A stretch of DNA of 64,000 nucleotides, taken from assembly GCF_030013595.1 (NCBI RefSeq), contig NZ_CP122768.1. The stretch is one strand, 5' to 3'. The stretch comes from Escherichia coli (GTDB taxonomy: Bacteria > Pseudomonadota > Gammaproteobacteria > Enterobacterales > Enterobacteriaceae). Positions 9,477 to 28,756 of this stretch are shown here, one piece after another; position 1 is the first letter of the stretch; the number at the start of each line of letters is the position of its first letter. The position numbers and the translations under genes were made by a program. The notes beneath the pieces were generated by a model. It saw only the letters and a program-made list of their open reading frames with translations, was not told the DNA's origin and did no database searches.

Positions 9477-10394
9477 ATGAACTTCAGACGCCTGAAATAC
9501 TTCGTAAAAATTGTAGATATTGGTAGCCTGACCCAGGCTGCTGAAGTATTGCATATCGCACAACCAGCGCTCAGTCAGCAGGTTGCCACACTGGAAGGTG
9601 AGTTAAATCAACAACTTTTGATTCGCACAAAACGGGGCGTTACGCCAACTGACGCCGGAAAAATTCTCTATACCCATGCGCGGGCCATTTTACGTCAGTG
9701 TGAGCAGGCCCAACTGGCGGTGCATAACGTTGGTCAGGCATTATCGGGGCAAGTCTCGATTGGCTTTGCGCCAGGAACCGCTGCGTCATCCATCACCATG
9801 CCCTTATTACAGGCGGTTCGCGCTGAATTCCCGGAGGTCGTTATCTATCTTCATGAAAATAGCGGTGCAGTACTTAACGAAAAACTGATAAATCATCAAC
9901 TCGATATGGCGGTGATTTATGAGCATTCCCCTGTGGCTGGTGTATCCAGCCAGGCTTTGCTGAAAGAAGATCTTTTCCTGGTAGGAACTCAAGATTGCCC
10001 GGGGCAAAGCGTTGATGTTAATGCTATTGCGCAAATGAACCTCTTTCTCCCTAGTGATTACAGTGCTATTAGACTTCGTGTTGATGAGGCTTTTTCCCTA
10101 CGGCGACTCACGGCAAAAGTCATTGGTGAAATTGAGTCTATTGCCACGCTTACCGCAGCGATTGCTAGCGGCATGGGCGTTGCAGTATTACCCGAATCGG
10201 CCGCGCGTTCGTTATGTGGCGCAGTAAATGGTTGGATGTCACGCATTACCACTCCTTCCATGAGTCTCTCTTTGTCATTAAATTTACCCGCCAGAGCGAA
10301 CTTATCGCCACAGGCACAGGCAGTGAAAGAGTTGTTAATGTCAGTGATGAGTTCTCCAGTGATGGAAAAAAGGCAGTGGCAATTGGTGAGCTAA
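9477..10394 (+). CDS. nac: Nitrogen assimilation control protein, LysR family
   Basis: 305 aa, N-terminal LysR HTH ([35 protein letters not shown]). Confidence 0.92.
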   Translation: MNFRRLKYFVKIVDIGSLTQAAEVLHIAQPALSQQVATLEGELNQQLLIRTKRGVTPTDAGKILYTHARAILRQCEQAQLAVHNVGQALSGQVSIGFAPGTAASSITMPLLQAVRAEFPEVVIYLHENSGAVLNEKLINHQLDMAVIYEHSPVAGVSSQALLKEDLFLVGTQDCPGQSVDVNAIAQMNLFLPSDYSAIRLRVDEAFSLRRLTAKVIGEIESIATLTAAIASGMGVAVLPESAARSLCGAVNGWMSRITTPSMSLSLSLNLPARANLSPQAQAVKELLMSVMSSPVMEKRQWQLVS

Positions 10395-10495
10395 GCGTTA
10401 TATCGGGATGGAATAAGATGCGGGTTTTTATTATTTGTTATGCCGGGCATTAGACTTTAACAATAACGGGATATCTGAACTGCCCGGAGTTTACC

Positions 10496-11446
10496 GTGAA
10501 TTTCCAACAACTAAAGATAATCCGCGAGGCTGCACGTCAGGATTACAACTTGACAGAGGTTGCGAATATGCTTTTTACCTCACAGTCAGGCGTCAGCCGT
10601 CACATTCGGGAACTGGAGGATGAACTTGGCATCGAAATATTTGTTCGACGAGGTAAGCGACTGCTGGGCATGACTGAACCGGGCAAAGCATTACTGGTCA
10701 TTGCAGAACGCATTCTTAATGAAGCCAGTAATGTTCGTCGGCTTGCAGACCTGTTTACCAACGATACGTCTGGCGTTCTCACTATTGCAACGACGCATAC
10801 TCAGGCACGTTATAGCTTGCCTGAGGTCATTAAAGCTTTTCGCGAACTTTTCCCGGAGGTTCGGCTGGAGCTAATCCAGGGTACACCACAGGAAATTGCG
10901 ACGTTGTTGCAAAATGGCGAAGCTGATATTGGTATCGCCAGCGAGCGTTTGAGTAATGACCCGCAGCTCGTCGCCTTCCCGTGGTTTCGTTGGCACCATA
11001 GTTTGCTTGTTCCACTCGATCATCCCTTGACGCAAATTACACCGTTGACGCTGGAATCAATAGCGAAGTGGCCGTTAATTACTTACCGACAGGGGATTAC
11101 CGGGCGCTCACGTATTGATGACGCATTTGTCCGCAAAGGTTTGCTGGCAGATATTGTATTAAGTGCGCAGGATTCTGATGTCATTAAAACCTATGTTGCT
11201 CTTGGGCTGGGGATTGGATTAGTTGCCGAACAATCCAGCGGCGAACAAGAGGAAGAGAATTTAATCCGTCTGGATACGCGGCATCTTTTCGATGCCAATA
11301 CTGTATGGTTGGGACTGAAGCGAGGGCAACTTCAACGTAACTATGTCTGGCGCTTTCTGGAACTTTGTAATGCAGGACTGTCAGTTGAGGATATCAAGCG
11401 CCAGGTGATGGAGAACAGTGAAGAGGAAATTGATTATCAGATATAG
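10496..11446 (+). CDS. cbl: Sulfonate-utilisation transcriptional activator, LysR family (CysB paralogue)
   Basis: 316 aa LysR HTH protein directly downstream of nac. Confidence 0.9.
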   Translation: MNFQQLKIIREAARQDYNLTEVANMLFTSQSGVSRHIRELEDELGIEIFVRRGKRLLGMTEPGKALLVIAERILNEASNVRRLADLFTNDTSGVLTIATTHTQARYSLPEVIKAFRELFPEVRLELIQGTPQEIATLLQNGEADIGIASERLSNDPQLVAFPWFRWHHSLLVPLDHPLTQITPLTLESIAKWPLITYRQGITGRSRIDDAFVRKGLLADIVLSAQDSDVIKTYVALGLGIGLVAEQSSGEQEEENLIRLDTRHLFDANTVWLGLKRGQLQRNYVWRFLELCNAGLSVEDIKRQVMENSEEEIDYQI

Positions 11447-11476
11447 CAAAAAGCCCGCTATAAAAGCGGGCTTTTC
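11447..11476. terminator. Bidirectional intrinsic terminator between cbl and asnU
   Basis: Hairpin aaagcccgct/agcgggcttt followed by a T-run. Confidence 0.6.
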
Positions 11477-11482
11477 AGAAAT

Positions 11483-11558
11483 TGGCTCCTCTGACTGGAC
11501 TCGAACCAGTGACATACGGATTAACAGTCCGCCGTTCTACCGACTGAACTACAGAGGA
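11483..11558 (-). tRNA. asnU: tRNA-Asn (GUU)
   Basis: Identical 76-nt tRNA-Asn sequence. Confidence 0.95.
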
Positions 11559-11718
11559 ATCGCTGTTGAGGCACATCTTAACGGCGAAAAATCTTTTGTC
11601 AAACCCGATTTTTAAATTTCCCAACTGTTTGCCGTTTCTATCAACAGTTTGTTGCATTTGCAGACAATTTGTTGGCGAAAATCTTTGCAGCTTTGCTGAT
11701 TCTCCCTCATTATTTGAA

Positions 11719-13206
11719 ATGTGGTTTCACTTTCTGCAATTAAGGTCGGCTTTGAATATCTCCTCTGCTTTACGCCAGGTTGTTCACGGCACTCGCTGGC
11801 ACGCCAAACGCAAGAGTTACAAAGTGTTGTTCTGGCGCGAGATAACCCCGCTTGCTGTTCCTATCTTCATGGAGAACGCCTGTGTCCTGTTGATGGGTGT
11901 CCTGAGCACTTTTCTGGTCAGCTGGCTGGGAAAAGATGCGATGGCCGGCGTGGGATTGGCGGACAGCTTCAATATGGTCATTATGGCTTTTTTTGCAGCT
12001 ATCGATCTTGGTACCACTGTCGTTGTGGCATTTAGTCTCGGTAAGCGGGATCGACGACGAGCGAGGGTGGCGACGCGGCAGTCATTGGTGATCATGACGT
12101 TGTTTGCCGTGCTGTTGGCAACGCTTATTCATCATTTTGGCGAACAAATTATTGATTTCGTTGCGGGTGATGCCACGACAGAAGTTAAAGCACTGGCGTT
12201 GACTTATCTGGAGCTGACGGTACTTAGTTATCCAGCAGCTGCCATCACTTTGATTGGTAGCGGGGCACTTCGTGGTGCAGGGAATACGAAAATACCGCTA
12301 CTGATTAACGGTAGCCTGAATATTCTTAATATTATTATTAGCGGCATATTGATTTACGGCCTTTTCTCTTGGCCGGGACTGGGATTTGTCGGGGCTGGGT
12401 TGGGTTTAACCATTTCTCGTTATATTGGCGCAGTGGCAATTTTGTGGGTGCTGGCGATTGGTTTTAATCCTGCGCTAAGGATTTCGTTAAAGAGCTATTT
12501 TAAACCGCTGAATTTTAGCATTATCTGGGAAGTCATGGGGATTGGTATTCCAGCGAGTGTCGAATCAGTGTTATTTACCAGTGGTCGGTTATTAACCCAA
12601 ATGTTCGTTGCCGGGATGGGGACCAGTGTTATTGCCGGAAATTTTATCGCGTTTTCAATTGCGGCTCTTATCAACTTACCCGGAAGTGCGCTCGGTTCTG
12701 CTTCTACGATCATTACAGGCCGAAGGTTGGGGGTAGGGCAGATAGCGCAAGCAGAGATTCAGTTGCGGCATGTGTTCTGGCTGTCCACTCTTGGATTAAC
12801 GGCTATCGCCTGGCTAACGGCTCCCTTTGCCGGGGTTATGGCATCGTTTTACACCCAGGATCCACAGGTTAAACATGTCGTTGTGATTCTGATTTGGCTA
12901 AATGCTTTATTTATGCCTATTTGGTCTGCCTCATGGGTGCTACCCGCTGGATTTAAGGGGGCTCGCGATGCACGTTACGCCATGTGGGTTTCTATGTTGA
13001 GCATGTGGGGTTGCCGGGTTGTAGTCGGTTATGTGCTGGGAATCATGCTTGGCTGGGGTGTGGTTGGTGTCTGGATGGGAATGTTTGCCGACTGGGCTGT
13101 GCGGGCCGTGCTGTTTTACTGGCGAATGGTTACTGGACGTTGGCTGTGGAAATACCCTCGACCTGAGCCGCAAAAGTGTGAAAAAAAGCCAGTTGTGTCG
13201 GAATAA
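11719..13206 (+). CDS. yeeO: MATE-family multidrug/flavin efflux transporter
   Basis: Polytopic membrane protein; start chosen at MWFHFLQ to give 495 aa; the longer 546-aa ORF begins too close to the asnU terminator. Confidence 0.8.
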   Translation: MWFHFLQLRSALNISSALRQVVHGTRWHAKRKSYKVLFWREITPLAVPIFMENACVLLMGVLSTFLVSWLGKDAMAGVGLADSFNMVIMAFFAAIDLGTTVVVAFSLGKRDRRRARVATRQSLVIMTLFAVLLATLIHHFGEQIIDFVAGDATTEVKALALTYLELTVLSYPAAAITLIGSGALRGAGNTKIPLLINGSLNILNIIISGILIYGLFSWPGLGFVGAGLGLTISRYIGAVAILWVLAIGFNPALRISLKSYFKPLNFSIIWEVMGIGIPASVESVLFTSGRLLTQMFVAGMGTSVIAGNFIAFSIAALINLPGSALGSASTIITGRRLGVGQIAQAEIQLRHVFWLSTLGLTAIAWLTAPFAGVMASFYTQDPQVKHVVVILIWLNALFMPIWSASWVLPAGFKGARDARYAMWVSMLSMWGCRVVVGYVLGIMLGWGVVGVWMGMFADWAVRAVLFYWRMVTGRWLWKYPRPEPQKCEKKPVVSE

Positions 13207-13306
13207 ACGACAAAGTGCAGATTATTTCAGCAAACGATTTCAAATTTAAAAAACAGGCTTTGACATTGTGGATGAGCGTCGCTAATATTCGCCTCGTTCT
13301 CACGAT

Positions 13307-13382
13307 TCCTCTGTAGTTCAGTCGGTAGAACGGCGGACTGTTAATCCGTATGTCACTGGTTCGAGTCCAGTCAGAGGAGCCA
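13307..13382 (+). tRNA. asnW: tRNA-Asn (GUU)
   Basis: Identical 76-nt tRNA-Asn sequence. Confidence 0.95.
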
Positions 13383-13443
13383 AATTTTAGTTTTGAGACA
13401 TCTCTATGAGTCTCAAAACAGTTAAAAAATAAAAATTATTTTT

Positions 13444-13479
13444 ACCCGGTTACCTTGTAAAAAGTGACCGGGTTTTTTG
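13444..13479 (+). terminator. Intrinsic terminator downstream of asnW
   Basis: acccggt...accgggt hairpin followed by TTTTTT. Confidence 0.65.
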
Positions 13480-13836
13480 ATTTCTGTGTTTCGTGCGCTT
13501 AATTGAGTCTCACGCTTCAGTGAGCAAATTGCCCCTCCCCAACAGACATCACGATTCACAAGGTCAAAAACTCTGTTCCATGAAGTACCGTACAAAGATA
13601 AAGAGAAAAATGCCTTATGCGGGATGTTGATGTCACGTCTTTATCGGGAAACTATGCGTAATTACCACTTTGTCTTCTGTAATCAGAAAAAGAAAACCTG
13701 GAATTTTAATAAATATTATTTCTCTGGGAACGGGGATTTTTTATAAGCAATATGACGAGTTGAACATTATATTTTTTATAAGGATTATATGAGATTAAAG
13801 AAATCTGCCATAAAGACAGATTTCTTTAAAATATAA

Positions 13837-14553
13837 TTAGAGATTTGCGACGTTATGATAAACTTTTTGTACATCGTCGTCATCTTCAAGGGCATCAACA
13901 AGCCCTTCAAAGATTTCTAAATCTTCTGGGGAAAGCTCAACTTCAGATTGAGCAATCATTTCTAATTCTGTTGTTGAGAACTCAGTGATTCCAGCAGCTT
14001 TTAGAGCCGCGATTCCTTTATGAAGGTCAGTAGGTTCAGTATAAATAACAATGTTACCTTCTTCTTCGGTCACATCACGAACATCAACTTCAGCTTCAAG
14101 TAAAATTTCAAAAATATGGTCAGGGTCTGTTCCTTTAAATACAATCACACCCGTATTGTCAAACATATAGCTGACAGAACCTGCCGCTCCGATATTGCCG
14201 CCTTTTTTATTGAAAATTGTGCGAACGTTAGCAATCGTACGGTTAACATTGGAAGTCAAGGTCTCAGCGATAATCATTGAGCCATTAGGACCAAAGCCTT
14301 CATAACGGCCCTGCACGAACGTTTCATCTCCGCCGCCTTTGGCTTTATCAATTGCTTTATCAATAACATGCTTTGGAACTTGTGCCTGCTTTGCTCGTTC
14401 AATAACGAATTTTAAAGATGTGTTTAATTCTGGATCGGGTTCACCTTGTTTGGCAGCGGCATAGATTTCTACACCGAATTTTGCATAAATTTTAGACGTC
14501 GCACCGTCTTTAGCCGTTTTTTTAGCAACAATATTGGCCCATTTACGTCCCAC
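13837..14553 (-). CDS. yeeN: YebC/PmpR-family probable transcriptional regulator
   Basis: 238 aa, [12 protein letters not shown]... typical of the family. Confidence 0.9.
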
Positions 14554-14893
14554 TGGAATGATCTCCTCGAAAATTTATTTACATTACTGGTAAATCGTTA
14601 ACATGTGTTAATTCGGCATATTATATCATAACAGGAAAAATCTCGTCTATTAGAAATAAAAATATTCTAAAGCCATAATATTATATTTAATCTCATAAAA
14701 ACTAATGTCGTTGGCGGATTTTTTATAATTGTGTTTTGAAAGCATACTTGCTTTTAATATGTGGAAATCATTAAGGCTAGAATAAAACTCGTATCCGCCC
14801 CAGGAAGCAAACAGCCTGCTTTATTGCAGGCTATTTGCTGGATGACTTACTAAATCCTTCACATCTATTCCTGATAAAAAGGAACAGAACTTA

Positions 14894-16348
14894 TTACCGG
14901 AACGGCGGCTCATTAAATGTTCGTAATTTACGTGAATGCAGTCGGTCGCCTTCTGCGCGCAGCAAATCGATCGCCCGAATGCCAATTTGCAGGTGTTCGG
15001 AAATAGCGCCTTCATAAAAACGGTTAGCCTGACCGGGAAGTTTAATCTCACCATGCAACGGTTTATCTGAAACACACAGTAGTGTCCCGTATGGCACGCG
15101 GAAACGATATCCTTGCGCGGCAATGGTTGCACTTTCCATATCAATTGCTACGGCCCGGCTTAAGTTAAAACGAAGTGCAGAAGCTGAGTAACGTAATTCC
15201 CAGTTCCTGTCATCTGTGGTTACCACAGTGCCAGTACGTAGCCGCTGTTTAACTTCCTCACCGGGCCTGCCGCTGACTAACTTGGTAGCGTCATAAAGCG
15301 CACGTTGCACTTCAGCAATGCTCGGAATAGGAATATCGGGCGGCAGTACCGCATCAAGAACGTGGTCATCGCGTAAATAAGCGTGTGCAAGTACATAATC
15401 TCCAATGGCCTGGCTTTCACGTAAGCCACCACAGTGACCAATCATCAACCAGACATCCGGGCGTAGCACCGCCAGATGATCGCAGATGGTTTTTGCATTT
15501 GACGGTCCCACGCCAATATTCACCAGAGTAATACCCTGACCATCGGCGGTAATTAAATGCCATGCTGGCATCTGGTGTTTTTTCCATGCAAGGTCGGAAA
15601 TGGCTTCCTCTGGCGCTTCGGTTTCGGCGGTGATCCAGTTCCCGCCAGCACAAGAAAGGGCAATGTAGGGACTATCAGGGTCGAGGATCTGGCTGCATCC
15701 CCAACGAACGAATTCATCCACATAACGTGTGTAGTTGGTAAACAAGACGAACGGCTGAAAATGTTCAACTGGCGTACCGGTATAATGGCGCAACCGCGCG
15801 AGGGAAAAATCGACGCGGCGCGCATCAAAATGCGATAGCGGGGAGAATTCCGTTGGATGATAAATGCCGTCTGTAGTTTCATCGCCAATTTGCGCCAGTT
15901 CTGTTGTCGGGAAGTAGCGAGTTAACCCAGCGCTCATTGAGCGATCAAGTGTCAATTCAGAGCCATCGATGACATAAGGATAAGGGATTTCATGCTGCGA
16001 GGGTTGCACCGAGATATGCGCACCATAATCCTGATACAGCAACGTAAGTTGTTCATTGAGATACGAACGAAAGAGAGTAGGGCGAGTAATCGTGGTGGTG
16101 TAGCTGCCTGCGTGGGTAAAACGACCAAATGCGCGCGTTTTGGGGGGATTGGTTGTGCTACCGTCCCAGGTTACGGTCAGTGATGGATAGACAAAAAGAC
16201 CTTGTTTGCGGGCGTTTTCATCAGGTAATTCGCCACTTGTAATATATTTGCCAATGGCGTTGCGTAAAGCGACTACAGATTGCTCATACAGCGCGTCGAG
16301 TTTATCCAGTGCCTGAGCTGGGGTCAGACCGGAGCCCTTATTATTCAT
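14894..16348 (-). CDS. amn: AMP nucleosidase
   Basis: 484 aa from the internal start MNNKGSGLTPAQAL; the longer ORF has an implausible N-terminal extension. Confidence 0.9.
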   Translation of the reverse strand: MNNKGSGLTPAQALDKLDALYEQSVVALRNAIGKYITSGELPDENARKQGLFVYPSLTVTWDGSTTNPPKTRAFGRFTHAGSYTTTITRPTLFRSYLNEQLTLLYQDYGAHISVQPSQHEIPYPYVIDGSELTLDRSMSAGLTRYFPTTELAQIGDETTDGIYHPTEFSPLSHFDARRVDFSLARLRHYTGTPVEHFQPFVLFTNYTRYVDEFVRWGCSQILDPDSPYIALSCAGGNWITAETEAPEEAISDLAWKKHQMPAWHLITADGQGITLVNIGVGPSNAKTICDHLAVLRPDVWLMIGHCGGLRESQAIGDYVLAHAYLRDDHVLDAVLPPDIPIPSIAEVQRALYDATKLVSGRPGEEVKQRLRTGTVVTTDDRNWELRYSASALRFNLSRAVAIDMESATIAAQGYRFRVPYGTLLCVSDKPLHGEIKLPGQANRFYEGAISEHLQIGIRAIDLLRAEGDRLHSRKLRTFNEPPFR

Positions 16349-16449
16349 GTGTGTCTCCTGTTCCATACAATTACCGCACATCCGATAGTATGTCACAGGA
16401 ATGTGAAACAAAAGTGTAAGGCGAAGATCGGATGATCTTCGCCAGGCTA

Positions 16450-17766
16450 TCAAGCGCGTTGATTGTCTTTCATCAACAAAGCGGTCATTGCGGAAATCAG
16501 GCATCCAGCCAGCAAATAAATAGCGACGCTATGCCAGTTCCCGGCAAAGTAAGTGATGAGTGCAGCGGCAATAAAAGGTGTAAATCCACCGCCAACCACA
16601 CTGGCAACCTGATATCCGACTCCAGCGCCACTATAGCGATAACTGGCACCAAACATTTCGGTAAACATCGGTTGTTGCACGCACACCACCATGTCATGCG
16701 CAATGTTTGCCAGCATGATGGAGAAGAAAACTATCCAGAAAATAGATTGTGCTTCAAGCGCCATAAAGAAAGGAAATGCGCTCAACGTTCCGATCAACGC
16801 GCCTGTGATATAAACCCTGCGGCGACCAAAACGATCGGCAAGCCAGGCAAAACAGGGAATTGTCAGGCAGCTTAATCCACCGACCAGCAAACCAATATTA
16901 AGGAAAAGTTCGCGCGGTAACCCCATATTCTGGGTTGAATAATTAAGTGCAAAGGCGGTAACGATGTACATCGTCAGCAACTCGCACAGTCGTAGCGCAA
17001 TAATCTTCAGGAAAGCACCGGGATGTCGTAATAGTGCTTCGATAACCGGGATGCGTTTTTTCGCGGCCGCTTGATTATGTTGCTGTTGTTCAAATTCCGC
17101 GGACTCCTCCATGCCATTACGCACCCACAATGCTCCCAGTACCAGTACGATGCTAAACAGGAAAGGAATGCGCCAGCCCCAGCTTAAAAACTGTTCGTCA
17201 GTCGTCATCATACTGATTAATGAAACCAGTCCAGTTGAAAGCAGTAAACCTACACCGTAGCCAACTTGTACACCGCTACTGTAAAAGGCTTTTTTATTTT
17301 TCGGCGCACTTTCAACGGAAAGTAACGCCGCGCCTCCCCATTCGCCGCCGACGGCAAATCCCTGTATGGCACGCAGTGTCACCAGTAAAATGGGGGCCCA
17401 CCACCCAATGGTCGAGAAGGAAGGAAGAATACCAATCAAGGCTGTCGCGATACCCATCATCCAGACGGTCAGCATTAACATGCGCTTACGTCCCAGTCGG
17501 TCGCCAAAGTGACCGAAAATGACACCGCCGAGCGGACGGAACAGGAATCCGACACCAAAGGTGGCAAATGCGGCGAGCGTTCCCATAGCCGGGCTTACTT
17601 GCGGGAAAAACTCGCGATTAAACACCAGTGCGGCGGTAATGCCATAGAGTAAAAAATCATACCAGTCGACGACGGCACCAGCGAAACTGCCTAACGCAGC
17701 TCGTCGGGCGCGACTTAACGAAAGCGTCCCTTCATCGGGACGAGTGGAGATGAGCGTGGAGTCCAT
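16450..17766 (-). CDS. shiA: Shikimate/dehydroshikimate MFS transporter
   Basis: 438-aa MFS protein with 12 predicted helices. Confidence 0.9.
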   Translation of the reverse strand: MDSTLISTRPDEGTLSLSRARRAALGSFAGAVVDWYDFLLYGITAALVFNREFFPQVSPAMGTLAAFATFGVGFLFRPLGGVIFGHFGDRLGRKRMLMLTVWMMGIATALIGILPSFSTIGWWAPILLVTLRAIQGFAVGGEWGGAALLSVESAPKNKKAFYSSGVQVGYGVGLLLSTGLVSLISMMTTDEQFLSWGWRIPFLFSIVLVLGALWVRNGMEESAEFEQQQHNQAAAKKRIPVIEALLRHPGAFLKIIALRLCELLTMYIVTAFALNYSTQNMGLPRELFLNIGLLVGGLSCLTIPCFAWLADRFGRRRVYITGALIGTLSAFPFFMALEAQSIFWIVFFSIMLANIAHDMVVCVQQPMFTEMFGASYRYSGAGVGYQVASVVGGGFTPFIAAALITYFAGNWHSVAIYLLAGCLISAMTALLMKDNQRA

Positions 17767-18017
17767 AATGATCCTGTTTGTACTGTCTTTTTATAATTAG
17801 TATGGAAAAGGTAACTCACATTGCCGTCGATCTATAAACGAACCTTATGAGACTACCTCGACAGAGCGCATCTGCAAATGATTTTATGGCTGATTAGCGG
17901 CAACATGAAAAATTCGATGGAAGATGAAAGCGCAGGAGTTGCTGGTGTTGTTTAAGGATTAAGCAGAGGATCCACAGATTCGAGATATGAAACATAAAAG
18001 TCCGCATATGCACAAAA

Positions 18018-19133
18018 TTGCGCCCTGATGATTCTGATAGACTACATTGCATTATAACCAGTAGGGAGGCGAGGTTAGTTATGTTTTTAGCATCATTGTT
18101 GAGACGTATTGCATTTAGTTACTACGATTATAAAGCTAATAATTTCAATATTGGAAAAACAGACTTTGTTGTCATACATATTCCCGATCAGATTGGCGAT
18201 GCTATGGCCATCTTTCCAGTTATTCGGGCGATTGAAATGCATAAAATAAAGCATCTTTTAATTGTTACTTCGACTATTAATTTAGAAGTCTTTAATGCGC
18301 TCAAACTTGAACAGACTAAATTAACATTAGTCACAATGACTATGCAGGATCACGCAACATTAAAAGAAATAAAAGATTTAGCAAAGAATATAACACAGCA
18401 ATACGGTACGCCGGATCTTTGTATAGAGGCGATGCGTAAAAAGAACCTGAAAACGATGTTATTTATCAGTCAGTTGAAAGCAAAAACGAATTTTCAGGTT
18501 GTCGGTTTAACCATGAAGTGCTATTCCCCTTTGTGTAAGAACGCGTCCCGGATGGATCAGAATCTCAGGGCTCCCGTACCCATGACATGGGCGTTTATGA
18601 TGCGTGAAGCGGGTTTTCCGGCAGTCAGGCCAATATATGAATTGCCATTAAGCGAGGATGCACTCGATGAGGTGCGCGAGGAAATGCGATCGTTAGGAGC
18701 TTACATTGCGCTCAATTTAGAAGGTAGTGCACAGGAACGTACATTTTCATTATCGATAGCAGAAAATCTAATAGCAAAAATTAAAAATGAAACAGATATG
18801 CCAATAGTGATCGTTCATGGACCAAAAGGGGAAGATAAAGCCAGGGTATTAGTGGATTGTTATAATAATGTCTTCCGTTTATCCTTATCACCCTCGATTA
18901 AACGTTCGGCAGCAATCATAAAAGATGCTTATATCGCAATAACTCCTGACACCTCAATATTACATATGGCAAGTGCCTATAATACCCCCGTTGTTGCAAT
19001 TTATGCTGATTACAAAACGCGATGGCCCGCAATGGCCGATGTTTCGGAGTCAGTCGTCGTTGGGCAAAAAATTGACAATATAAGTCTGGATGAATTCGCA
19101 AAGGCATTAAAAAGTGTTTTGGCGAGAATATGA
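18018..19133 (+). CDS. yeeL: Putative GT9-family (heptosyltransferase-like) glycosyltransferase, apparently intact
   Basis: Single uninterrupted 371-aa ORF (true start may lie at a downstream Met); C-terminal ITPDTSILHMASAYNTPVVAIYAD resembles the GT9 signature; AT-rich relative to neighbours. Confidence 0.65.
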   Translation: MRPDDSDRLHCIITSREARLVMFLASLLRRIAFSYYDYKANNFNIGKTDFVVIHIPDQIGDAMAIFPVIRAIEMHKIKHLLIVTSTINLEVFNALKLEQTKLTLVTMTMQDHATLKEIKDLAKNITQQYGTPDLCIEAMRKKNLKTMLFISQLKAKTNFQVVGLTMKCYSPLCKNASRMDQNLRAPVPMTWAFMMREAGFPAVRPIYELPLSEDALDEVREEMRSLGAYIALNLEGSAQERTFSLSIAENLIAKIKNETDMPIVIVHGPKGEDKARVLVDCYNNVFRLSLSPSIKRSAAIIKDAYIAITPDTSILHMASAYNTPVVAIYADYKTRWPAMADVSESVVVGQKIDNISLDEFAKALKSVLARI

Positions 19134-19394
19134 GGCAGTATTTATGCATATTAATGCCGATCTGTTATGAACGGTGGTGTCATCAATACTCTGTGGCTGG
19201 TCAATCATTACAGAAAGCCAGCCTTTGGATCAAAGCTGTACTCACCGGATACAACCATAGTCACACCGAACGCGAATCTGGCGGTATCGCATTTTTATTT
19301 ATTCATTTTCTGTGAGAGAAGGGCAAGTTCTGTAGAGAGAATGTAAAAAAGAGCGCCCCGAATGGAGCACTCTTTAAGGAATTATAGCGGAAAA

Positions 19395-27376
<7,982 letters not shown>

Positions 27377-27689
27377 GCTTACCTTCCCTGAACGAGCTAA
27401 CATAAATGCGCCCTTTCTAGCACAGCGAAAAAAAGTAAATCCTGATAGCAATATGATTGAAAATTAATAACTTTTCGTTAGGCAGTTTTGGGTGTGAGTT
27501 GCAAGAGGGGAGACTACTGAATTACTCAAGTTTTATAATCGAGGGGAAAATGGTGATGGCGTCCATAGCAAAACGCCCTCAACCATTAAGGTCGAGGGCG
27601 CTTAAGATGTCAAAAACCCGCTATCCGTTAAAAAGCAATGCTCAACTAAGGTCAGTGACATTGCGCTAAAAAAGCGAATTTTTAGAATT

Positions 27690-27765
27690 TGGCTCCTCTG
27701 ACTGGACTCGAACCAGTGACATACGGATTAACAGTCCGCCGTTCTACCGACTGAACTACAGAGGA
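27690..27765 (-). tRNA. asnT: tRNA-Asn (GUU)
   Basis: Identical 76-nt tRNA-Asn sequence, with the same 5' leader as asnV. Confidence 0.95.
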
Positions 27766-27865
27766 ATCGTGTGAACGGGGCGCATATTACTTAGCGGTAC
27801 CTTGCCTGTCAACACTAAATTTCATAAGTCATTTCAATTGGTTAATTAATCTGCAAAGTTGTTAA

Positions 27866-28663
27866 TTAATGAACATTCGTCGCCGAAAACGAGTCTGTAT
27901 CATTAGCGTGATGCAGTCTCTGCAAAGGATCTTGTTGATAAAATTGGCAGAAACGTTGCCACAATGAAGGGAAACGAGGAGCAAAAAGTTCTGGGGCGCT
28001 AAAGAAATATTCAGAAAGTACGGCAAAACATTCAGCAGGATCACTGGCAGCATAAGCATCAATGCTCGCCGCATTCTCGCCAACCAATTCGATTTCTTCC
28101 TGAATGTTGTTCATTGCAGCATGAAGATCGTGTTCCCAGCCAGCAACCTCACGCAACGGAATAAAGGGAACTCCGCTGGCGCGATCGCCGTTACGGGTGT
28201 CCAGCTTATGAGCGACTTCATGAATAATCAGGTTAAAACCAGATGCATCAAAAGAATCTTGTATATCCAACCAGTTCAAAACGATAGGCCCTTGCTGCCA
28301 GCTCTGACCTGACTGAACAATACGTTGGTTATGCACCAGACCGATATCGTCTTCCCATTCATCATCGACCACAAATGGCGCAGGATAAATTAAGACTTCA
28401 TGAAAACCATCCAGCCATTCCAGTCCTAACTCCAGAACGGGCAGGCAAAATAGAAGTGCTATCCGGCAGCTTCTTAATGAATCCAGTTCAAAGCCCTGTA
28501 AAGGAACAAGCCGCTTTTGCTGTAAAAAACGTTCGGCAAGAGTGACTAATTTGCTTTGTTCCTGTTCCGTCAGACACGTTAAAAGGGGGATCGATAGTGC
28601 TTCCTGCCAGGGAAGGGCAGTTTGATGTGCTGATTCTTGTACTTTCCAGGGCCACTTAATCAT
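27866..28663 (-). CDS. mtfA: Mlc titration factor A (zinc-dependent peptidase family)
   Basis: 265 aa from MIKWPWK; HEVAH zinc-binding motif. Confidence 0.9.
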
Positions 28664-28756
28664 CGTTTTGCTCGCAAACTCGTCACTTGAACAAAATTGC
28701 ACGGACAGGGACTGTTAAAATGCCAAATTTCCTGGCATCATGGCAACCATCTGAAC

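What the first reader, a model, noticed from the sequence alone, without database searches (positions are those of the whole stretch)
18018..19133. Apparently intact, AT-rich GT9-like glycosyltransferase (yeeL) convergent with the yeeJ adhesin gene
A single uninterrupted 371-codon ORF carries a C-terminal motif (ITPDTSILHMASAYNTPVVAIYAD) resembling the GT9/heptosyltransferase donor-binding signature. As far as I recall the K-12 counterpart is annotated as a disrupted pseudogene. Its AT content is well above that of neighbouring genes, suggesting horizontal origin. Heptosyltransferase-like enzymes are known to glycosylate autotransporter adhesins (AIDA-I/Aah, TibA/TibC), so a functional YeeL might modify YeeJ or another surface protein. 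This is a hypothesis only, and yeeJ itself looks frameshifted here.
Basis: inference. Interest (0 to 1): 0.45.

Follow-up and report, generated by a model that had tools for sequence, protein, structure and literature searches.

The report
Intact orphan GT9 glycosyltransferase gene yeeL
This is the ordinary, intact form of the E. coli gene yeeL, an uncharacterised sugar-transferring enzyme related to the enzymes that build the lipopolysaccharide core, and nothing found here links it to the neighbouring YeeJ adhesin.

Summary
The ORF is real, but the gene most likely starts at ATG 18081, giving 350 aa rather than 371 codons. It is intact here, whereas K-12 carries a single nonsense codon (K235*). 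It is AT-rich: 38.8% GC against 48.6% for the window.

The link to yeeJ is positional only:
- yeeL DNA is in 97% of 5,426 complete E. coli genomes; yeeJ is intact in about 35-40% (literature).
- A 19-genome sample showed no association between intact yeeL and intact yeeJ.
- Relatives in another Escherichia lineage, E. albertii, Pseudocitrobacter, Erwinia and Rosenbergiella have no adjacent inverse autotransporter.
- YeeJ works in K-12 hosts.

More distant relatives sit in surface-polysaccharide clusters beside Wzy_C proteins, and one is fused to Wzy_C.

The best reading is an accessory cytoplasmic enzyme that decorates a lipid-linked envelope glycan. The acceptor and donor are inferred, not shown. 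The gene is already annotated, so interest is low.

The parts
18081..19133 (+). yeeL coding sequence (350 aa plus stop), intact; a GT9-family GT-B glycosyltransferase
18018..18080 (+). In-frame upstream extension of the mechanical ORF (TTG start); probably not translated
   Evidence: No homologue has this extension in alignment A1; a Shine-Dalgarno-like GGGAGG..GAGG lies inside it at 18064-18074
18084..18119 (+). N-terminal basic, weakly amphipathic helix (residues 2-13) ahead of the first Rossmann strand; conserved with the following D-Y motif across the subfamily. Inferred membrane-interface element.
   Evidence: DSSP helix 2-13 at modest pLDDT (57-63 over residues 1-20); muH 0.38-0.50, pI 9.8 for residues 1-27, no TM segment; present down to 19-25% identity relatives
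18183..18203 (+). P35-D-Q-I-G-D40-A41: the G-D motif after beta-1; D40 is the candidate catalytic base (by its position in the motif, the counterpart of WaaC Asp13)
   Evidence: D36, Q37, G39 and D40 are invariant in A1; G39 and D40 are invariant in the extended alignment A2. Equivalence to WaaC D13 is inferred from motif position and general knowledge of GT9.
18714..18746 (+). N212-L-E-G-S-...-R220-T-F222: first strand and loop of the C-lobe; by position, the counterpart of the WaaC phosphate-binding T187/T188/K192 region
   Evidence: N212, G215, S216, R220, T221 and F222 are invariant in A1; N212 is invariant in A2; the correspondence itself is inferred
18939..19010 (+). ITPDTSILHMASAYNTPVVAIYAD: the GT9 donor-binding signature (D290, T291, H295)
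   Evidence: HMM alignment to WaaC 219-280 puts D290/T291/H295 on D261/T262/H266; P289, T291 and H295 are invariant and D290 is at least 90% conserved in A2
19348..19375 (.). GC-rich 12-bp hairpin between the convergent genes; on the - strand it is followed by a T-run (the yeeJ terminator), and it possibly also stops yeeL transcription
   Evidence: Terminator scan
19395..27376 (-). yeeJ, the long (UMN026-type) allele, disrupted. Neighbour only; not part of a shared system.
   Evidence: 7982 nt against 7077 nt in K-12. A C5->C4 frameshift at 26304-26307 gives a stop at codon 361 (26296-26294), and 2305 further codons are open in the next frame. Annotated as a pseudogene in the twin strain.
16450..17766 (-). 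shiA, divergently transcribed upstream neighbour (314-nt intergenic region)
   Evidence: Synteny with yeeL is kept in Pseudocitrobacter but not in E. albertii, Erwinia or Rosenbergiella. The upstream MFS genes in Erwinia and Rosenbergiella show no detectable similarity (E<1e-3) to ShiA or to each other.

Best explanation
yeeL encodes a soluble or peripheral cytoplasmic GT-B enzyme of CAZy family GT9. It belongs to a small, divergent subfamily marked by a roughly 28-residue N-terminal helix plus D-Y extension and a basic N-lobe.

Proposed mechanism:
- The acidic C-lobe binds a nucleotide sugar through the EGS..R220 and D290-T291-x3-H295 motifs. The sugar is most likely ADP-L-glycero-beta-D-manno-heptose, which E. 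coli already makes.
- The basic N-lobe and the N-terminal helix dock the enzyme on an anionic, lipid-linked glycan at the inner face of the cytoplasmic membrane. The acceptor is most likely LPS core oligosaccharide, or otherwise an undecaprenyl-PP-linked oligosaccharide.
- Asp40 deprotonates the acceptor hydroxyl for an inverting transfer.

The modification is accessory. The gene is kept under purifying selection in most E. coli but has been lost repeatedly, including in K-12. It acts independently of the adjacent yeeJ adhesin gene, which is one of several alternative inserts in the tRNA-Asn hot spot next to yeeL.

Shown here: the fold, family membership, motif conservation, selection pattern, distribution and lack of linkage to yeeJ. 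Inferred: the donor sugar, the acceptor and membrane docking.
For: Family and fold:
- Pfam GT9 scores above its gathering cut-off.
- The AF2 model is confident (pLDDT 86.5, pTM 0.85).

Catalytic equipment:
- G39-D40, D290, T291 and H295 are invariant or nearly invariant from E. coli down to 19-25% identity relatives.
- D290/T291/H295 align on WaaC D261/T262/H266.
- The N-lobe has pI 9.3 and the C-lobe pI 5.2, with no TM segment.

Selection:
- dN/dS is 0.13-0.28 among E. coli alleles.
- 52-66% identical orthologues occur in E. albertii, Pseudocitrobacter, Erwinia and Rosenbergiella, with 95 invariant columns.

Link to lipid-linked glycans:
- The next-closest relatives (Carnimonas P0108, plus P0109 and P0257) lie among GT2, GT4 and WecG-type transferases, a WbaP-type initiating transferase and Wzy_C (O-antigen ligase/polymerase family) genes.
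- P0115 sits next to a WaaI-like GT8.
- P0136 is a Wzy_C::YeeL-like fusion.

Independence from yeeJ:
- yeeL DNA is in 5287 of 5426 genomes, while a complete yeeJ 5' region is in 2884.
- The 19-genome table shows no positive association.
- Relatives in an Escherichia sp., Pseudocitrobacter, E. albertii, Erwinia and Rosenbergiella have no autotransporter neighbour.

Activity without YeeJ:
- Tn5 insertions in yeeL were enriched (logFC 7.46) in a hyper-motility TraDIS screen of ST131 EC958 (PMC5425062).
- In that strain yeeL is intact and yeeJ is a degraded remnant.
Against: - No biochemical data exist for any member, so donor and acceptor are inferred.
- All heptosyltransferase I/II/III, RfaQ and RfaF equivalog models score far below their cut-offs (37 bits against 185, and similar). 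Sequence similarity to solved GT9 enzymes is marginal (E 0.11).
- In Enterobacterales the gene is stand-alone, away from the waa and rfb clusters, with no conserved neighbour. The polysaccharide-cluster argument rests on relatives of only about 30% identity, and one of those (L010) is also stand-alone.
- Neighbours in those clusters match no curated equivalog. Wzy_C proteins also include protein O-oligosaccharyltransferases.
- Relaxed constraint: omega is 5-10 times that of flanking genes, and at least three independent nonsense alleles occur among 19 genomes.
- The TraDIS hit was not validated with a defined mutant.
Confidence: 0.55

Rival explanations
1. YeeL is an adhesin glycosyltransferase that heptosylates the YeeJ passenger, or another surface adhesin, in the cytoplasm, as Aah does for AIDA-I and TibC for TibA.
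For: It belongs to the same broad family (GT9) as BAHTs. The genes are adjacent and convergent in E. coli. Six of 19 sampled genomes have both genes intact.
Against: - The BAHT modules defined in PMC4358343 are missing: no N-terminal beta-barrel and no beta-hairpin thumb, and no 4-Cys iron finger. The Cys residues are at 114, 147, 152 and 260, and C260 varies.
- Known BAHT substrates are type Va beta-helix autotransporters; YeeJ is a type Ve protein built of Big domains.
- There is no co-inheritance. Eight of 14 intact-yeeL genomes lack a functional yeeJ, and three of five yeeL pseudogene genomes keep an intact yeeJ.
- Intact yeeJ is commonest in phylogroup A (25 of 38), the K-12 lineage in which yeeL is broken.
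- No autotransporter lies next to yeeL in five other genera or species.
- YeeJ is surface-exposed and promotes biofilm in K-12 hosts.
- yeeJ is itself frameshifted in this window.
Confidence: 0.05
2. YeeL glycosylates some other protein substrate, for example a cytoplasmic, flagellar or envelope protein, rather than a lipid-linked glycan.
For: GT9 includes protein-modifying enzymes (BAHTs). The only phenotype on record is altered motility. Wzy_C neighbours or fusion partners of distant relatives could be O-oligosaccharyltransferases. The gene is stand-alone, outside the LPS clusters.
Against: The structure is closest to lipid-glycan-acting WaaF and WaaC, with a canonical Rossmann N-lobe, unlike TibC's atypical N-lobe. 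The basic N-lobe and N-terminal helix suit an anionic membrane-bound acceptor. In Wzy_C-dependent protein glycosylation the cytoplasmic glycosyltransferases still act on Und-PP-linked glycans.
Confidence: 0.12
3. yeeL is a functionless relic in slow decay. The intact reading frame in this window reflects only that no disabling mutation has yet hit this lineage.
For: Disruption recurs. The K235* allele is in 769 of 5426 genomes. Other nonsense codons occur at 153 and 60, and an IS3 insertion within the gene in another (H29; not examined further). Omega is 5-10 times that of neighbours. K-12 grows normally without it. No strong promoter was found upstream.
Against: Omega of 0.13-0.28 is well below 1. 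Ninety-five columns are invariant across four genera at 52-66% identity, including all catalytic motifs. About three quarters of sampled genomes keep it intact. There is a transposon-insertion phenotype in EC958.
Confidence: 0.12

Closest known systems
LPS core heptosyltransferases WaaC (HepI) and WaaF (HepII), CAZy GT9 (PDB 2GT1/2H1H/6DFE, 1PSW)
   Different: Identity is only 12-15%. Equivalog HMM scores are far below cut-off. There is an extra N-terminal helix plus D-Y extension of about 28 residues. R220 stands in place of WaaC K192 (inferred). The family has its own invariant motifs (EAMRKKN, C147..C152, SRMDQ). The gene is not in the waa cluster, is dispensable and is often a pseudogene.
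Veillonella parvula GT9 protein, PDB 3TOV (function unknown)
   Different: 14% identity. It is itself uncharacterised, so it gives no functional transfer.
Bacterial autotransporter heptosyltransferases (BAHT: TibC, Aah), PDB 4RAP
   Same: GT9-related catalytic core, ADP-heptose-type donor motif and an Asp base.
Unclassified YeeL-like GT9 genes in surface-polysaccharide clusters (e.g. Carnimonas bestiolae WP_435631030.1)
   Same: 29-34% identity over the full length, with the same N-terminal extension and the same invariant residues.
   Different: These genes are embedded among GT2, GT4 and WecG transferases, a WbaP-type transferase and Wzy_C genes, or fused to Wzy_C. The enterobacterial genes are solitary.

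Membership tests
CAZy GT9 / Pfam PF01075 (Glyco_transf_9) | Profile match above the curated gathering score | tested here: met
   30.1 bits against a cut-off of 22, E=4e-7, residues 232-321; precomputed PF01075 on nearly all homologues
CAZy GT9 / Pfam PF01075 (Glyco_transf_9) | GT-B fold (two Rossmann-like lobes) closest to solved GT9 enzymes | tested here: met
CAZy GT9 / Pfam PF01075 (Glyco_transf_9) | Catalytic Asp in the G-D motif after beta-1 (WaaC Asp13) | tested here: met
   G39-D40 are invariant in A1 and A2, immediately after strand 29-33. Equivalence to D13 rests on motif position, not on a superposition I could inspect.
CAZy GT9 / Pfam PF01075 (Glyco_transf_9) | C-lobe D-T-x3-H donor motif (WaaC D261/T262/H266) | tested here: met
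   HMM alignment; conservation
CAZy GT9 / Pfam PF01075 (Glyco_transf_9) | Uses ADP-heptose as donor | not testable with these tools
   Needs an enzyme assay
LPS heptosyltransferase I/II/III (WaaC/WaaF/WaaQ equivalogs) | NCBIfam equivalog score above cut-off | tested here: not met
   TIGR02193 37.4 against 185.3; TIGR02195 19.6 against 134.6; TIGR02201 16.7 against 170.2; RfaQ 15.7 against 467; RfaF 12.1 against 569
LPS heptosyltransferase I/II/III (WaaC/WaaF/WaaQ equivalogs) | Encoded in the waa (rfa) core-biosynthesis cluster | tested here: not met
   Lies between shiA and yeeJ/mtfA; solitary in other genera
Bacterial autotransporter heptosyltransferases (BAHT; TibC/Aah) | N-terminal flattened beta-barrel domain (TibC residues 1-97) | tested here: not met
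   Feature defined in PMC4358343. YeeL has helix 2-13 and then the first Rossmann strand at 29-33, and the whole protein is 350 aa.
Bacterial autotransporter heptosyltransferases (BAHT; TibC/Aah) | Iron-finger: four conserved Cys in a C-lobe insertion (TibC C339/342/358/370) | tested here: not met
   Cys only at 114, 147, 152 and 260, with none after 260. C260 is not conserved.
Bacterial autotransporter heptosyltransferases (BAHT; TibC/Aah) | Beta-hairpin thumb inserted in the C-lobe | tested here: not met
   The DSSP string of the model shows plain alternating strand/helix in 209-349, with no hairpin insertion
Bacterial autotransporter heptosyltransferases (BAHT; TibC/Aah) | Genetic pairing with a substrate autotransporter | tested here: not met
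   No autotransporter beside yeeL in five other taxa; no association with yeeJ intactness in 19 E. coli genomes
Bacterial autotransporter heptosyltransferases (BAHT; TibC/Aah) | Dodecameric ring assembly | not testable with these tools
   Only a monomer was modelled

The most novel reading that the evidence does not exclude
YeeL and its relatives form a distinct, uncharacterised GT9 subfamily. It comprises about 33 clusters at 50% identity with E<=1e-30, out of 1.84 billion representatives, and has its own N-terminal helix/D-Y module and N-lobe motifs. In this reading the enzyme adds a conditional, non-stoichiometric sugar to the LPS core or another envelope glycolipid in most E. coli. That modification would alter surface behaviour such as motility, and it would have been missed because K-12 carries a nonsense allele.
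Probability: 0.3. Interest if true: 0.45.

Novelty: already known. Interest (0 to 1): 0.2.

Why it matters
As it stands, little changes. yeeL is a catalogued gene (b4497), RefSeq already names it a GT9 family protein, and its pseudogene state in K-12 is on record. The useful result is negative: adjacency to yeeJ should not be read as a glycosyltransferase-adhesin pair. The residual value is that nearly all natural E. coli carry an intact, conserved and completely uncharacterised envelope-type glycosyltransferase that the K-12 model strain lacks. One unvalidated transposon phenotype (hyper-motility in ST131) gives a cheap entry point for defining its substrate.

Tried and rejected
- A conserved MFS-transporter partner. 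MFS genes lie upstream in Erwinia and Rosenbergiella, and shiA lies upstream in E. coli. The three MFS proteins share no detectable similarity, so the adjacency is coincidental.
- Sequence-only comparison with solved structures. Both the single sequence and the profile gave only marginal WaaC/WaaF hits (E 0.11-1.9) and no TibC hit. Structure comparison was needed.
- tblastn of YeeL against 72,556 plasmids, to pick up Aah/TibC-like relatives. The listed hits were mislabelled chromosomes and generic GT9 genes, with none annotated as Aah or TibC.
- Promoter scan of the shiA-yeeL intergenic region. Matches were no more frequent than in shuffled sequence and none lay upstream of the ATG, so it was uninformative.
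- NCBIfam naming of neighbours in the distant polysaccharide clusters. No equivalog-level assignment emerged, only a WaaI-like GT8 at 119 bits. I therefore call them surface-polysaccharide clusters rather than LPS-core clusters.
- Literature. 'yeeL' alone is swamped by author names. Targeted searches found no functional study, only its use as an integration site, the phi80 lysogeny site, the Rhs hot-spot table and the TraDIS table.
- Elevated divergence of this allele as a sign of recent transfer. This was rejected because flanking housekeeping genes show similar dS (0.08-0.115 against 0.14 for yeeL) to K-12. The whole region belongs to a divergent lineage, and only dN is raised in yeeL.

Full report
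**Observation**

The window has an uninterrupted ORF at 18018..19133 on the + strand.
- The mechanical ORF starts at a TTG. All 23 aligned homologues begin at the Met encoded at 18081.
- That ATG has a GGGAGG/GAGG ribosome-binding site 6-17 nt upstream.
- RefSeq annotates exactly this 1053-nt CDS in strain HCP5S3_I2, whose protein is identical.

The gene is therefore 18081..19133 and encodes 350 aa.

The flanking context is ldtA-nac-cbl-yeeO-yeeN-amn-shiA | yeeL > < yeeJ-tRNA-Asn-mtfA. The locus is the E. coli yeeL locus.

K-12 MG1655 carries a single nonsense codon, AAA->TAA at codon 235. It also has substitutions at otherwise invariant family positions: A117G, R157S and L143I.

The gene is AT-rich, with GC 38.8% and GC3 35.9%. 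shiA, amn and yeeJ have GC 49.7-51.6%.

yeeJ here is the long UMN026-type allele. It is broken by a C5->C4 frameshift at 26304-26307.

**What the protein is**

Sequence profiles:
- Pfam GT9 matches above threshold, but only over the C-lobe.
- The curated heptosyltransferase I/II/III, RfaQ and RfaF models all score far below their cut-offs.

Structure:
- A 24-sequence family alignment gave a confident AlphaFold model (pLDDT 86.5, pTM 0.85). It has two Rossmann-like lobes.

Motifs:
- The profile alignment places D290/T291/H295 on WaaC D261/T262/H266.
- G39-D40, directly after the first strand, is invariant even in relatives of 19-25% identity. This is the expected position of the GT9 catalytic base (established knowledge for WaaC Asp13).

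Other features:
- The N-lobe is basic (pI 9.3) and the C-lobe acidic (pI 5.2).
- There is no TM segment.
- The protein begins with a short basic, weakly amphipathic helix and a conserved D-Y motif that canonical WaaC and WaaF lack.

**Is it a BAHT?**

[quoted passage not shown] YeeL has none of the three sequence- or structure-testable modules. Filing it as an Aah/TibC-type enzyme is not justified.

**Is it linked to yeeJ?**

Prevalence differs sharply:
- yeeL DNA is present in 5287 of 5426 complete E. coli genomes.
- Only 2884 genomes have a complete yeeJ 5' region.
- Published surveys find intact yeeJ in 35-40% of strains, mostly phylogroup A (PMC5595812 and PMC6714894).

I read the annotation at this locus in 19 genomes spread evenly down the similarity ranking:

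| yeeL | yeeJ | genomes |
|---|---|---|
| intact | intact | 6 |
| intact | broken or remnant | 8 |
| pseudogene | intact | 3 |
| broken | broken | 2 |

There is no positive association (odds ratio about 0.5). The sample is small and not phylogenetically independent.

Outside E. coli the gene never has an autotransporter neighbour:
- Pseudocitrobacter: shiA-yeeL-mtfA.
- A 73%-identical Escherichia lineage: hchA-yeeL-mtfA-shiA.
- E. albertii: tonB-yeeL-yciA.
- Erwinia and Rosenbergiella: other contexts.

The yeeL-mtfA interval beside tRNA-Asn is an insertion hot spot. In different strains it holds yeeJ, an Rhs element, the HPI island plus a yeeJ remnant, IS elements or phi80.

YeeJ is surface-exposed and promotes biofilm in K-12 hosts that lack YeeL. 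The adjacency is therefore positional, not functional.

**Selection and population state**

Intact yeeL is the norm:
- The K-12 nonsense haplotype occurs in 769 of 5426 genomes.
- Two other independent nonsense alleles appeared in my sample.

dN/dS among alleles is 0.13-0.28, which indicates purifying selection. That is 5-10 times the value for the flanking housekeeping genes at similar dS. The pattern fits an accessory, dispensable function.

Low GC relative to the flanks is seen in Escherichia and Pseudocitrobacter but not in Erwinia or Rosenbergiella. Together with the different locus in E. albertii, this supports an old horizontal acquisition. It does not indicate a recent one.

**Clues to function**

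An exhaustive profile search found a small family: 33 cluster representatives at E<=1e-30.

The nearest full-length relatives outside Enterobacterales sit in surface-polysaccharide loci:
- Carnimonas bestiolae and two metagenomic contigs place the gene among GT2, GT4 and WecG-type transferases, a WbaP-type initiating transferase and Wzy_C (O-antigen ligase/polymerase family) proteins.
- One sits beside a WaaI-like GT8.
- One is a Wzy_C::YeeL-like fusion protein.
- One is solitary.

This points to lipid-linked glycans as the ancestral acceptors.

The only phenotype in the literature comes from a TraDIS screen in ST131 EC958. Insertions in yeeL were enriched (logFC 7.46) among hyper-motile cells (PMC5425062). 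I confirmed that EC958 has an intact yeeL and only a degraded yeeJ remnant. Any activity there is therefore YeeJ-independent. The hit was not validated with a defined mutant.

**Verdict**

This is a real, intact gene of a known kind that is already annotated.

The most likely mechanism is an inverting GT9 transfer to a lipid-linked envelope glycan at the cytoplasmic membrane, catalysed via Asp40. The sugar is probably heptose from ADP-heptose, and the acceptor is most plausibly LPS core. The fold, motifs, distribution and independence from yeeJ are shown. The donor, acceptor and membrane docking are inferred.

The adhesin-glycosylation hypothesis is not supported (about 5%). Interest is low. 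The main residual point is that K-12's nonsense allele has left a near-universal E. coli glycosyltransferase unstudied.

Noticed in passing
window 26304-26307 (yeeJ, - strand; gene 19395-27376): yeeJ is the long UMN026-type allele (7982 nt against 7077 nt in K-12). It is inactivated by loss of one C in a C5 homopolymer run, giving a stop at 26296-26294. The remaining 2305 codons are open in the next frame. A homopolymer slip could be a sequencing error or a reversible switch.
   Followed up: partly
yeeL-mtfA interval (window ~19134-28700) and loci L024, L027, L029, L035: This interval beside tRNA-Asn is a variable hot spot. It holds yeeJ here, HPI (fyuA) plus a yeeJ remnant in EC958, IS3 or IS1 insertions in other strains, an Rhs element in strain Crooks (PMC3032704) and a secondary phi80 attachment site (PMC6016239).
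   Followed up: partly
L034/L035 (E. coli ST131 EC958, NZ_HG941718.1 2214863-2215915): A published TraDIS screen lists yeeL (EC958_2299) among 30 genes whose disruption gives hyper-motility (logFC 7.46). The strain has an intact yeeL and no functional yeeJ. The paper did not follow up on yeeL.
   Followed up: partly
L002, L022, L023 (codon 235 TAA); L024 (codon 153 TAG); L029 (codon 60 TAA): There are at least three independent nonsense alleles of yeeL among 19 genomes. The K-12 haplotype (exact 35-mer) is in 769 of 5426 complete genomes.
   Followed up: yes
window 13837-14553 (yeeN, - strand): yeeN is also strongly AT-rich (GC 40.4%, GC3 29%), yet its protein is identical to K-12's (dN 0, dS 0.08). 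Low GC in this neighbourhood therefore does not by itself mark an accessory gene.
   Followed up: no
window 9477-19133 versus K-12 (L002): The whole region is unusually divergent from K-12 (dS 0.08-0.14 in every gene). Only 12 of 5426 genomes are at least 99% identical over yeeL. The window comes from a rare lineage, closest to pig isolates HCP5S3_I2 and LCP30S3_I5.
   Followed up: partly
L007 5750-6811 and 8001-9059 (Carnimonas bestiolae): Two GT9 genes sit one gene apart in one polysaccharide cluster. The second also matches heptosyltransferase models only over its C-lobe, as YeeL does, which suggests a paralogous pair.
   Followed up: no
L009 1955-4288 (protein P0136, metagenomic contig): A 777-aa protein fuses a Wzy_C (O-antigen ligase family) membrane domain to a YeeL-like GT9 domain.
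   Followed up: partly
L032 10001-11059 (E. albertii CP117647.1): The E. albertii homologue (66% identity) lies between tonB and yciA rather than at the shiA locus. This indicates independent insertion or relocation of this single gene.
   Followed up: partly
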